Shown here one piece after another: positions 10,335 to 34,631 of a stretch of 64,000 nt of DNA (the stretch's first letter is position 1; the number at the start of each line of letters is the position of its first letter). The notes under the pieces were generated by a model. It saw only the letters and a list, made by a program, of their open reading frames with translations. It was not told the DNA's origin and did not search any database. The DNA is taken from assembly GCA_947625535.1 (NCBI GenBank), contig CANQOR010000001.1:2661-66660 (forward strand), written 5' to 3'. The position numbers and the translations under genes were made by a program. This stretch comes from an uncultured Bacilli bacterium. GTDB lineage: Bacteria > Bacillota_I > Bacilli_A > RF39 > UBA660.

Positions 10335-11714
10335 TTAGAAGTCAATTTTTTCTTTGATATAATCTGCTACTTCATTAATATTTAATTTAATTTGTTCCAT
10401 AGTATCACGATCTCTTATAGTAACTATATTATTTTCTAATGTTTCATCATCAACTGTAATACTAAATGGTGTACCTACAGCATCATTACGACGATATCTT
10501 TTACCTATTGAACCTGATTCATCATATGTAACATAGAAATCTTTACATAGTAAAGAATATAATTCCATAGCTTTATCTTTATGAACTTTTTTAATAAGTG
10601 GTAAAATTGTTGCTTTAATAGGAGCTAATGAAGGATGAATACGTAAGACTTCTCTAGTATCATTGTTAGGTAATTCTTCTATTTCATATGCATTACAAAT
10701 AAAAGCTAAGATAGCACGATCTAGACCTAGGGATGGTTCTATTACAAATGGTGTATATCTTTCATTAGTTTCAGGATCTAAGTATCTTAAATCTTGTTTA
10801 GAATGTTCCATATGAACAGATAAGTCATAATCAGTACGATCAGCAATACCCCATAATTCACCCCATCCCATTGGGAATAAGAATTCGATATCAGTAGTAG
10901 CTTTACTATAGAAAGATAATTCTTCTTTAGAGTGATCACGATAACGTAGTTTATCATTTTTAATACCTAAAGATTTTAACCAATCAATACAATAATTTTT
11001 CCAATAACCAAACCATTCTAAGTCAGTATCTGGTTTACAGAAGAATTCTAGTTCCATTTGTTCAAATTCTCTAGTTCTAAAAGTAAAATTACCAGGAGTT
11101 ATTTCGTTACGGAAACTTTTACCTGTTTGACCAATACCAAATGGTATTTTAGCACGCATACTTCTTTGAACATTTAAGAAGTTAACAAAGATACCTTGTG
11201 CTGTTTCACCACGTAAATAGACTTTAGACTTAGTATCTTCAGTTACACCTTGATGAGTTTCAAATAGTAAGTTAAATTTTCTAATTGGAGTAAATTCTTC
11301 AGAACCACATTTAGGACATGTAATATGATTATCACTAATAAATTTTTCAATTTTTTCATTGTCCCAACCGTCAGCTGTTTCTTTACCACCTGTAAATTCT
11401 TCAATTAATTTATCAGCACGATGACGGCTTTTACATTTTTTACAATCGATAAGAGGGTCGTTAAAGTTTGTAACGTGACCACTTGCTACCCATACTTCAG
11501 GATTCATAAGGATAGCAGCATCTAAACCATAATTATAGGGATTTTCTTGAATAAATTTTTTCCACCAAGCACGACGAACGTTTTCTTTTAATTCTCTTCC
11601 TAAAGGTCCATAATCCCAAGTATTTGATAAACCACCATATATTTCACTTCCTTGGAATATAAAACCATATTGTTTACAATAGTTAGCAATATCTTCCATT
11701 TTAATTTCTTTCAT
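10335..11714 (-). CDS. glyQS: Glycine--tRNA ligase (homodimeric class IIa type)
   Basis: [31 protein letters not shown]. Start moved to MKEIKMED at 11714 (GAGAGGA RBS); the longer ORF start lies inside the T-box. Confidence 0.96.
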
Positions 11715-11748
11715 AATTATTCCTCTCTTTCTTAAATGATTTTTTAAT

Positions 11749-11866
11749 AAAAAAACTTCTAGAAATATGTAGGAACGAGTATTAACCCGCGGTTCCATCC
11801 TACTTATTTCTAGAAGAAATCACCTTATTTTATATAGCTCATGGTTGCCAACCCACTCATCGCTTG
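11749..11866 (-). promoter_or_regulatory. Glycine T-box riboswitch, miniature architecture
   Basis: T-box GTAGGA-TGGAACC-GCGGG...CTCGT-TCCTAC; K-turn stem AGCGATGA...GAGCT with GGC in its loop; T7 tract. Confidence 0.85.
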
Positions 11867-11875
11867 TATGAATTA

Positions 11876-11903
11876 ATTATAACAAATTATTTTTTTAAGT
11901 CAA
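11876..11903 (-). promoter_or_regulatory. SigA promoter of the glyQS leader
   Basis: TTGACT-16 nt-TATAAT with TGn extended -10. Confidence 0.75.
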
Positions 11904-34554: not shown

Positions 34555-34631
34555 GTCCTCGTAGCTCAGCTGGATAGAGCAATCGCCTTCTAAGCGATCG
34601 GTCAGGTGTTCGAATCACCTCGGGGACACCA
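34555..34631 (+). tRNA. tRNA-Arg (anticodon UCU)
   Basis: Cloverleaf GTCCTCG...ATCGC-CTTCTAA-GCGAT...TTCGAAT...CGGGGAC-ACCA; promoter TTGAAA-17-TATAAT at 34505-34533. Confidence 0.97.

What the first reader, a model, noticed from the sequence alone, without database searches (positions are those of the whole stretch)
11836..11864. Glycine T-box with an ultrashort 29-nt Stem I and no Stem II
Seen (minus strand): AGC-GAT-GA-GTGG-[GTTGGCAA]-CCAT-GA-GCT, i.e. a K-turn (GA motif) plus a 4-bp helix capped by an 8-nt loop with the Gly codon GGC followed by A. The T-box bulge TGGAACC (UGGA) pairs with the UCCA end of tRNA-Gly. The whole leader is only about 120 nt from a clear promoter. Known: Bacillus glyQS T-boxes lack Stem II but have a long Stem I with apical T-loops that bind the tRNA elbow; actinobacterial ileS T-boxes have ultrashort Stem I but keep Stem II. 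Inference: this one lacks both stabilising modules, so it may be a minimal T-box class.
Basis: partly seen in the sequence, partly recalled or inferred. Interest (0 to 1): 0.8.

Follow-up and report, generated by a model that had tools for sequence, protein, structure and literature searches.

The report
Minimal glycine T-box riboswitch before glyS
The leader of the glycyl-tRNA synthetase gene is a tRNA-sensing T-box riboswitch about half the usual size: it reads the tRNA anticodon with only a small kinked hairpin, a design conserved across many genera of uncultured gut bacteria.

Summary
On the minus strand, 11864-11836 is a 29-nt K-turn hairpin whose loop shows U-GGC-A. A 15-nt linker, Stem III, a canonical T-box antiterminator (bulge UGGAACC) and a terminator with U7 follow, about 124 nt from a near-consensus promoter, ahead of glyS. 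Rfam's T-box model scores only 43.6 bits against a cut-off of 93.

The design is conserved. A model built from it finds full-length copies of 60 bits or more in about 114 of 151 genera of the family. All 47 copies inspected keep a Gly codon (GGA 32, GGC 15) followed by a purine, and 46 of 47 have U before it. The stems covary. glyS lies downstream in 38 of 38 checked.

There is no distal Stem I and no room for a Stem II.

New here: the terminator's 3' strand pairs with the Stem III region, so the terminator encloses an intact antiterminator. tyrS in the same genome has a sibling ultrashort Stem I showing UAC.

Function is untested. I found no description of this class in print. The scan noted the same kind before on other DNA (e1-1145288).

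Verdict: a real new variant of a known kind.

The parts
11898..11903 (-). -35 hexamer TTGACT
   Evidence: 11 of 12 matches, 16-nt spacer; conserved position in congeners
11876..11881 (-). -10 hexamer TATAAT with TG extension; inferred start near 11869
   Evidence: the start site is inferred, not shown
11836..11864 (-). Ultrashort Stem I: C-stem AGC/GCU, K-turn (bulge GAU, tandem G.A/A.G), 3b.3n G.U, 3 WC pairs, 8-nt apical loop
   Evidence: covariation; motif counts
11846..11850 (-). U + specifier GGC (11849-11847) + conserved purine A in the apical loop
   Evidence: U 46/47, purine 47/47, GGC 15 / GGA 32 of 47; glyS downstream 38/38
11821..11835 (-). 15-nt single-stranded linker: conserved AUAUA start, ends in AGGUG (RRRxG purine string before Stem III); too short for a Stem II or IIA/B
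   Evidence: AUAUA in 31/47; RRRxG in at least 27/47 by a crude script
11806..11820 (-). Stem III hairpin (6 bp, 3-nt loop; -2.1 kcal/mol), followed by AA at 11805-11804
   Evidence: 98.1% of cells paired, 3 of 6 pairs with double changes; AA in 45/47
11769..11803 (-). Antiterminator: helix A1 (11803-11798 with 11774-11769), 7-nt T-box bulge UGGAACC (11797-11791), helix A2 (11790-11786 with 11779-11775, G.U at its base)
   Evidence: Rfam alignment; covariation; bulge identical in 47/47
11805..11816 (-). 5' strand of the terminator; overlaps Stem III and its 3' flank
   Evidence: MFE; explicit energies; covariation
11756..11767 (-). 3' strand of the terminator, pairs with 11816-11805 and encloses the antiterminator
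11749..11755 (-). U-tract (7 U) of the intrinsic terminator
11721..11728 (-). Purine-rich ribosome-binding site (AGAGAGGA) before the glyS start; not sequestered in the predicted folds
   Evidence: read from the sequence
10335..11714 (-). glyS: alpha2-type glycyl-tRNA synthetase, 459 aa, ATG at 11714-11712
   Evidence: orthologues in 58 of 61 related genomes

Best explanation
This is a working, transcription-attenuating glycine T-box that controls glyS with a stripped-down decoding module.

SHOWN BY SEQUENCE AND COMPARISON
- A promoter is followed by a K-turn hairpin that presents U-GGC-A in its apical loop. Then come a 15-nt linker ending in the RRRxG purine string, Stem III, AA, the canonical antiterminator with bulge UGGAACC, and a terminator with U7.
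- Each helix covaries and the loop always holds a glycine codon.

INFERRED
1. The loop pairs with the anticodon of tRNA-Gly. Across relatives it reduces to a 7-nt N-U-GGM-A-N loop with the layout of an anticodon loop (U at '33', purine at '37'). GGC would read the GCC anticodon here, and GGA the UCC anticodon in most relatives. This would be a loop-loop contact, without the elbow-binding distal Stem I and without Stem II.
2. The K-turn points the linker and discriminator towards the acceptor end.
3. UGGA in the bulge pairs with the free UCCA end, and the Stem III purine strings latch onto that helix, as in solved discriminator structures.
4. The switch is between the weak Stem III hairpin (-2.1 kcal/mol) and a 12-bp helix that the 3' tail forms with the Stem III region. 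That helix extends A1 downward into a long terminator hairpin (-34.1 against -20.7 kcal/mol). Uncharged tRNA would hold Stem III and its flanks in the discriminator and block invasion by the tail, giving readthrough. Charged or absent tRNA would leave Stem III free to be invaded, giving termination.

So A1/A2 persist in both states. This differs from the textbook switch, in which the 3' strands of A1/A2 become the terminator's 5' strand.

The confidence of 0.8 is for a functional glycine-sensing T-box. I put the Stem III exchange itself at about 0.55.
For: THE ELEMENT ITSELF
- Anatomy at the stated coordinates.
- The Rfam T-box model aligns the linker, Stem III and antiterminator, E = 1.2e-8 in a 301-nt search.
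- MFE -37.3 kcal/mol, z = -4.55.
- tRNA-Gly GCC x2 and UCC x1 all end in UCCA.

DISTRIBUTION
- 26 of 30 glyS loci of relatives carry the same leader. Three have no T-box and one, from another family, has a long canonical Stem I.
- Model R1 finds full-length hits of 60 bits or more in about 114 of 151 genera of the family (hand count).
- In a class-wide sample, 12 of 13 genomes of the family hit at E <= 1e-8. Only 3 of 137 genomes of other families do, and weakly.
All are uncultured Bacilli/Mollicutes-like MAGs by their titles.

GENE AND CODON
- glyS lies downstream in 38 of 38 and in 74 of 80. The 6 misses have 10-1306 nt of downstream sequence available.
- Of 47 leaders: GGA 32, GGC 15, U before the codon 46, purine after it 47, bulge UGGAACC 47.

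COVARIATION
- Antiterminated structure, 38 sequences: 96.2% of cells paired, 16 of 24 pairs changed on both sides, 0 of 500 shuffles reach this, and slid controls give 37-52%.
- The three WC pairs of the hairpin each show several pair types.
- Terminator helix between the Stem III region and the 3' tail: 12 pairs, 11 with changes on both sides, 90.6% paired in 47 sequences.
- The MFE shows the nested terminator in 37 of 38 and in 68 of 76.
- Energies of the two states.

SUPPORTING CASES
- The tyrS leader of the same genome has the same K-turn and short hairpin, with U-UAC-G in the loop and UGGU in the bulge. It is conserved in about 24 congeners. This supports reading the loop triplet as the specifier.
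- Both tRNA-Gly isoacceptors exist in one GGA-type and one GGC-type genome.
Against: - There is no experiment and no usable RNA data. One search found only small shares, and I laid no reads.
- The published view cuts against self-sufficiency. Truncated Stem I's showed barely detectable tRNA affinity without Stem II, and transcriptional T-boxes are said to need the elbow-binding motif (passages of PMC7583486). The usual excuse for glycine T-boxes is three G-C pairs (GGC:GCC), but most relatives use GGA.
- The hairpin is weak at -7.2 kcal/mol.
- The K-turn 3' GA is replaced by NA in 9 of 47 leaders, and strict RRRxG was counted in only 27 of 47 by a crude script.
- Alignments A2 and A3 were fitted to the modelled structures, and the genomes are kin, so the covariation figures flatter the model.
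- Because A1/A2 stay formed inside the terminator, the canonical competition is missing. The Stem III exchange is my inference from folds, covariation and published structures, not an observed switch.
- The simple terminator scan reported 0 sites here, because the hairpin's interior exceeds that scan's loop limit.
- No L7Ae-type K-turn-binding protein was found in the genome, which is 88% complete. This removes one possible helper but proves nothing.
Confidence: 0.8

Rival explanations
1. This is a real tRNA-Gly sensor that is not self-sufficient. An unidentified helper supplies the affinity that the distal Stem I or Stem II gives elsewhere. Candidates are a K-turn- or tRNA-binding protein, RNA polymerase pausing, or the conserved AUAUA linker acting as a minor-groove prop.
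For: The literature says a truncated Stem I alone barely binds tRNA (PMC7583486 passage). The linker begins with a conserved AUAUA in 31 of 47 leaders, with no assigned role. The K-turn is kept in nearly all.
Against: No L7Ae-family gene (PF01248) was found in the genome, which is 88% complete. No conserved neighbouring gene other than glyS was seen. A helper is not needed to explain any sequence feature.
Confidence: 0.25
2. The specifier reading is the same, but the switch differs. tRNA docked on the bulge and stacked on A1 blocks closure of the lower 12-bp helix by steric or topological hindrance. Stem III is a bystander.
For: A1/A2 persist in both predicted states. In published structures the tRNA acceptor stacks on the discriminator (review passages).
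Against: Stem III itself is conserved and covaries, and the terminator's 5' strand always overlaps it. Published work finds the antiterminator alone does not bind tRNA without Stem III.
Confidence: 0.15
3. This is a decayed T-box. A deletion removed most of Stem I, and the leader now acts as a constitutive or non-specific attenuator, or senses only free UCCA ends without reading the anticodon.
For: The Rfam score is far below the family cut-off. The hairpin is weak.
Against: The leader is kept in about 114 of 151 genera. It shows compensatory changes in the tiny helix, and the loop triplet is always a glycine codon even though its third base changes. The tyrS sibling shows the tyrosine codon at the same place.
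Confidence: 0.05

Closest known systems
Transcriptional glycine T-boxes (glyQS/glyS leaders of Bacillus, Geobacillus, Oceanobacillus, Listeria, Clostridium tetani)
   Same: Glycine specifier followed by a purine. K-turn at the base of Stem I. No Stem II. Single-stranded linker. Stem III with purine flanks. UGGAACC bulge reading U73-CCA. Intrinsic terminator. aaRS gene downstream.
   Different: Those have a long Stem I whose distal double T-loop platform stacks on the tRNA elbow, described as essential for transcriptional T-boxes (PMC7583486). All glycyl T-boxes analysed in PMC11404447 have it. Here everything distal to the specifier is missing and the specifier sits in an apical loop. The terminator pairs with the Stem III region instead of with the 3' strands of A1/A2.
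Ultrashort-Stem-I translational T-boxes of Actinobacteria (ileS of Mycobacterium; Sherwood 2015 and Battaglia 2019 as cited in the review; I could not open either paper)
   Same: The specifier is mounted in the apical loop of a short Stem I above a K-turn. There is no elbow contact.
   Different: Those keep Stem II and the IIA/B pseudoknot, which are needed for tRNA binding. They act on translation by sequestering the ribosome-binding site, and they read isoleucine. This one has neither module and ends in a terminator with a U-tract.
tyrS leader of the same genome (G000 contig C4, outside the window)
   Same: The same K-turn plus 3-bp hairpin with N-U-codon-R-A in the loop. The same nested terminator through Stem III.
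   Different: It reads UAC and has UGGU in the bulge. It keeps a IIA/B-like element (CGUUA...) between Stem I and Stem III, though there is no room for Stem II proper.
Complexes of two tRNAs with complementary anticodons (recalled from older biophysical literature; not checked here)
   Same: Two 7-nt loops with U at position 33 and a purine at 37 pair through three bases and are far more stable than a free trinucleotide duplex. This is a physical precedent for a loop-loop specifier contact.
   Different: These are not regulatory elements. The resemblance is a lead only.

Membership tests
T-box leader (Rfam RF00230) | Conserved T-box sequence forming helix A1, a 7-nt bulge UGGNACC and helix A2 | tested here: met
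   Rfam alignment. Bulge identical in 47 of 47. A1/A2 are 99.6% and 98.7% paired with compensatory changes.
T-box leader (Rfam RF00230) | Fourth bulge base complementary to the discriminator base of the cognate tRNA | tested here: met
   UGGA against UCCA in all 3 tRNA-Gly genes of the genome.
T-box leader (Rfam RF00230) | Specifier codon, followed by a purine, matching the amino acid of the regulated gene | tested here: met
   GGC-A before glyS. GGC or GGA in 47 of 47, purine in 47 of 47. glyS downstream in 38 of 38.
T-box leader (Rfam RF00230) | GA (K-turn) motif at the base of Stem I | tested here: met
   Read from the sequence. 5' strand in 44 of 47, 3' GA in 38 of 47. Folding as a K-turn was not tested.
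T-box leader (Rfam RF00230) | Stem III flanked by 5'-RRRxG and AA-3' (discriminator domain) | tested here: met
   AGGUG-Stem III-AA in the window. AA in 45 of 47. Strict RRRxG in at least 27 of 47 by a crude script.
T-box leader (Rfam RF00230) | Score at or above the family's gathering cut-off | tested here: not met
   43.6 bits against 93. No T-box reported in the window at gathering. 0 of 20 related loci pass.
T-box leader (Rfam RF00230) | Uncharged-tRNA-dependent antitermination | not testable with these tools
   Needs in vitro transcription or a reporter assay.
Canonical transcriptional (class I) T-box architecture | Long Stem I with distal AG bulge and apical loop forming the elbow-binding platform | tested here: not met
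   Stem I is 29 nt, and the promoter leaves no room upstream. Rfam deletes 92 model positions.
Canonical transcriptional (class I) T-box architecture | Terminator whose 5' strand is the 3' strand of the antiterminator (mutually exclusive with A1/A2) | tested here: not met
   The terminator's 3' strand pairs with the Stem III region and A1/A2 stay formed.
Actinobacterial ultrashort-Stem-I (class II, translational) T-box | Stem II with S-turn and IIA/B pseudoknot docking on the short Stem I | tested here: not met
   Only 15 nt lie between Stem I and Stem III. Linkers are 13-21 nt in relatives.
Actinobacterial ultrashort-Stem-I (class II, translational) T-box | Sequestration of the ribosome-binding site instead of a terminator | tested here: not met
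   A 12-bp helix plus U7 ends about 20 nt before the ribosome-binding site.

The most novel reading that the evidence does not exclude
A self-sufficient RNA of about 120 nt is the smallest natural tRNA-charge sensor that acts on transcription. It would recognise tRNA identity by a bare anticodon-loop-like hairpin (a loop-loop kiss, with neither an elbow contact nor a Stem II prop). It would switch by exchanging Stem III for a terminator that wraps around a permanently formed antiterminator. That would mean the elbow platform and Stem II are accessories rather than requirements of co-transcriptional tRNA sensing, and that Stem III, not A1/A2, can be the moving part of the switch.
Probability: 0.45. 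Interest if true: 0.85.

Novelty: new variant of a known kind. Interest (0 to 1): 0.72.

Why it matters
Current models hold that a transcriptional T-box must catch its tRNA quickly through the elbow-binding end of a long Stem I, and that a short Stem I needs Stem II. A class that has neither, yet is conserved with compensatory changes across many genera, tests those rules directly. It also gives structural biology and RNA engineering a sensor half the usual size.

The class is invisible to standard annotation. Rfam at its gathering threshold finds 0 of 20 related leaders. T-box counts in these abundant gut and rumen bacteria are therefore underestimates.

The Stem III-for-terminator exchange appears in 7 of 14 T-boxes of this genome. 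If real, it adds a second wiring of the T-box expression platform, and it fits the recent finding that Stem III is part of the charge-sensing domain.

Tried and rejected
- Rfam at gathering threshold on the window reported only a tRNA. The T-box appears only at a relaxed threshold.
- The simple terminator scan found nothing, because the hairpin encloses 47 nt.
- Public RNA runs: 7 runs hold at most 0.08 of the sampled words, all kept as contigs. I did not lay them, so there is no expression evidence either way.
- I asked whether the choice of GGA or GGC follows the tRNA-Gly repertoire. One GGA-type genome (G115) and one GGC-type genome (G183) each have one GCC and one UCC gene, so no such link shows in 2 of 2 genomes.
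- Looked for a K-turn-binding L7Ae-family protein and found none (genome 88% complete).
- Looked for pairing partners of the conserved AUAUA linker (5' flank, A2 loop, 3' tail) by eye and found none convincing.
- Other R1 hits of 84-101 nt in the family resemble the own-genome hits, which are the 3' halves of ordinary long T-boxes. I did not pursue them as further minimal leaders.
- My U-run rule cut 8 tails short (labelled 'Tbox5strand') and found no U-run in 4. These are script artefacts, not different topologies.
- Papers I could not open: Sherwood 2015, tried by DOI and by a guessed PMC id, and Vitreschak 2008, tried by a guessed PMC id. What I say of them comes from the review.
[quoted passage not shown] That figure may bear on novelty.
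- Literature searches that found no description of this class.

Full report
WHAT IS THERE

On the minus strand, a near-consensus promoter sits at 11903-11876: TTGACT, a 16-nt spacer, TG-TATAAT. It consists of:
- a C-stem AGC/GCU;
- a three-base bulge GAU;
- tandem G.A/A.G;
- a G.U at the K-turn 3b.3n position;
- three Watson-Crick pairs;
- an 8-nt loop GUUGGCAA.

The rest of the leader runs as follows:
- a 15-nt linker (11835-11821) that ends in AGGUG;
- a 6-bp Stem III (11820-11806);
- AA;
- helix A1;
- the bulge UGGAACC (11797-11791);
- helix A2 with a G.U at its base;
- the return strand of A1 (to 11769);
- two bases;
- a 12-nt segment (11767-11756);
- seven U (11755-11749).

The glyS start is at 11714, behind a purine-rich ribosome-binding site.

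IS IT A T-BOX?

Rfam's T-box model does not reach its cut-off on the window. In a local search it scores 43.6 bits against 93, E = 1.2e-8. It aligns the linker, Stem III and the antiterminator well and deletes 92 positions of Stem I.

The same genome (1.82 Mb, 28.5% G+C, 88% complete) has 13 other T-box matches of 158-207 nt. This one is the shortest.

The genome encodes tRNA-Gly(GCC) twice and tRNA-Gly(UCC) once. All three end in UCCA, which is the complement of UGGA in the bulge.

IS THE SMALL STEM I REAL OR A RELIC?

I took glyS loci from 30 relatives:
- 26 carry the same leader;
- 3 have no T-box directly upstream;
- 1, from another family, has a long canonical Stem I.

A covariance model of the 26 (A1, R1) was run on one genome per genus of the family. 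By my hand count of the listing, about 114 of 151 genomes have a full-length match of 60 bits or more. I inspected 47 of these leaders, from about 45 genera.

In a class-wide sample, 12 of 13 genomes of the family match at E <= 1e-8. Only 3 of 137 genomes of other families match, weakly and with further reduced or doubtful hairpins.

A strict pattern was scanned over one genome per species: K-turn strand, a 4-8 nt gap, UGGMA, a 28-56 nt gap, then the T-box sequence. By their titles these are uncultured Bacilli, 'Mollicutes' or 'Tenericutes' MAGs from guts and rumens, and one is 'Mycoplasma sp. CAG:472'.

glyS lies downstream in 38 of 38 model hits. It lies downstream in 74 of 80 pattern hits; the other six loci have 10-1306 nt of downstream sequence.

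In 7 of the 38 model hits another gene lies between the leader and glyS.

CONSERVATION AND COVARIATION

Of the 47 leaders:
- the loop triplet is GGA in 32 and GGC in 15;
- it is preceded by U in 46;
- it is followed by a purine in 47;
- the bulge is UGGAACC in 47;
- the 5' K-turn strand is present in 44;
- the 3' GA is present in 38.

The three Watson-Crick pairs of the hairpin each show several pair types. For one pair the counts are UA 14, GU 12, GC 11, AU 5, CG 2. The outer C-stem pair flips between A-U (22) and U-A (21).

For the antiterminated structure on 38 sequences:
- 96.2% of cells pair;
- 16 of 24 pairs change on both sides;
- no shuffle of 500 reaches this;
- sliding the partners drops pairing to 37-52%.

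Two cautions apply. These alignments were fitted to the model, and the genomes are relatives.

Counting extra closing pairs, many loops reduce to seven bases, N-U-G-G-M-A-N. That is the layout of an anticodon loop, with U at '33' and a purine at '37'. One genus has a 5-nt loop, A-GGC-A.

The change of the third codon base, with the amino acid kept, is what a specifier would do.

A second case supports this reading. The tyrS leader of the same genome (outside the window) has the same K-turn and 3-bp hairpin, with U-UAC-G in the loop and UGGU in the bulge. It is kept in about 24 congeners.

NO STEM II

Linkers measure 13-21 nt. Their last five bases belong to the Stem III purine string, so neither a Stem II nor a IIA/B pseudoknot can fit. 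The linker starts with AUAUA in 31 of 47 leaders. I have no explanation for that.

THE TERMINATOR IS WIRED DIFFERENTLY

The 12 bases before the U-tract do not pair with the 3' strands of A1/A2, as textbook T-boxes do (review passages). They pair with 11816-11805, which is most of Stem III plus the A after it.

The off state is therefore one long hairpin that contains an intact A1-bulge-A2 (MFE). Explicit energies are:

| Element or state | kcal/mol |
|---|---|
| Stem III alone | -2.1 |
| Antiterminated state | -20.7 |
| Terminated state | -34.1 |

The same topology is the MFE in 37 of 38 and in 68 of 76 relatives. In the second set, the other 8 were cut short by my U-run rule.

With a model of the terminated fold (R2, A3), the 12-pair helix is 90.6% paired. 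It has changes on both sides in 11 of 12 pairs, and slid controls give 45-52%. Stem III itself also covaries. Two exclusive helices are therefore both conserved, which is the signature of a switch.

By MFE of their 3' parts, the 14 T-boxes of this genome split as follows:
- 7 use this nested wiring, including long-Stem-I ones;
- 5 use the canonical wiring;
- 2 pair the T-box 5' strand with the tail.

HOW IT MOST LIKELY WORKS (INFERENCE)

1. The loop pairs with the anticodon of tRNA-Gly.
2. The K-turn aims the linker at the acceptor arm.
3. UGGA pairs with the free UCCA end.
4. The purines flanking Stem III latch onto that helix, as in the solved discriminator structures summarised in PMC7583486.
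5. This holds the weak Stem III closed, so the tail cannot invade before the polymerase has passed the U-tract.
6. With charged tRNA, or none, Stem III is unprotected and the far more stable terminator forms.

WHAT SPEAKS AGAINST IT

- The same review states that truncated Stem I's have barely detectable tRNA affinity without Stem II, and that the elbow contact is essential for transcriptional T-boxes.
- The usual argument for Stem II-less glycine T-boxes is three G-C pairs. It does not cover the GGA majority.
- A helper is therefore possible. I found no L7Ae-family gene.
- There are no RNA data.

COMPARISON AND NOVELTY

The element works like a glyQS-type T-box and shares every feature of the discriminator. 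It fails two features of the canonical transcriptional architecture: the long Stem I and the terminator wiring. It also fails both features that define the actinobacterial ultrashort class: Stem II and translational control.

I found no description of such a class. Nine literature searches turned up nothing. Neither did the passages I read of five papers:
- PMC7583486;
- PMC11404447, whose abstract and passages describe only long-Stem-I glycyl T-boxes;
- PMC7778990;
- PMC2494555;
- PMC10907184.

Rfam at gathering finds 0 of 20 related leaders.

Earlier agents of this scan reported the same kind of minimal glyS leader in another genome (e1-1145288) and a translational minimal one in a CPR bacterium (e1-2046577). 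My evidence is independent of theirs.

VERDICT

This is a real, conserved new variant of the T-box riboswitch, and its function is still to be shown.

Noticed in passing
G000 contig C4:47418-47548 (L013:1546-1676), outside the window: The tyrS leader also has an ultrashort Stem I: a K-turn plus a 3-bp hairpin whose loop shows U-UAC-G, with bulge UGGU. It keeps a IIA/B-like CGUUA element but has no room for Stem II. It is conserved full-length in about 24 congeners and one other genus.
   Followed up: partly
G000, 14 T-box loci (L001-L014): By MFE of their 3' parts, 7 of 14 T-boxes have a terminator that pairs with the Stem III region and encloses the antiterminator. Five are canonical, and 2 pair the T-box 5' strand with the tail.
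   Followed up: partly
window 11831-11835 (-) and the same position in relatives: The linker right after Stem I begins with AUAUA in 31 of 47 leaders. No pairing partner or role was found.
   Followed up: partly
L019, L021, L023-L026 (congeners), between the T-box terminator and glyS: An insertion of roughly 110-140 nt (by eye) carries a ribosome-binding site and a small ORF of about 16-20 codons with a conserved E-x-E-R-G stretch. It is absent from this window.
   Followed up: no
L093 (G042, another family), L092 and L095 (a third family): These are weak R1 hits outside the family. The G042 hit lies directly upstream of glyS and has an even smaller hairpin holding GGA-A. The other two have doubtful or missing Stem I's, and I did not check their downstream genes.
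   Followed up: no
L090 (G210): A variant of the minimal leader has a 4-bp stem and only a 5-nt loop, A-GGC-A.
   Followed up: no
window 34555-34628 (+): The only Rfam match at gathering threshold in the window is a tRNA gene of 66 bits. Its anticodon loop reads CUUCUAA, which suggests anticodon UCU, Arg.
   Followed up: no
L050, L051, L054, L055, L057, L064, L070: In 7 of 38 genera another gene of about 0.5-1.4 kb lies between the minimal T-box and glyS, so there the leader controls a two-gene operon.
   Followed up: no
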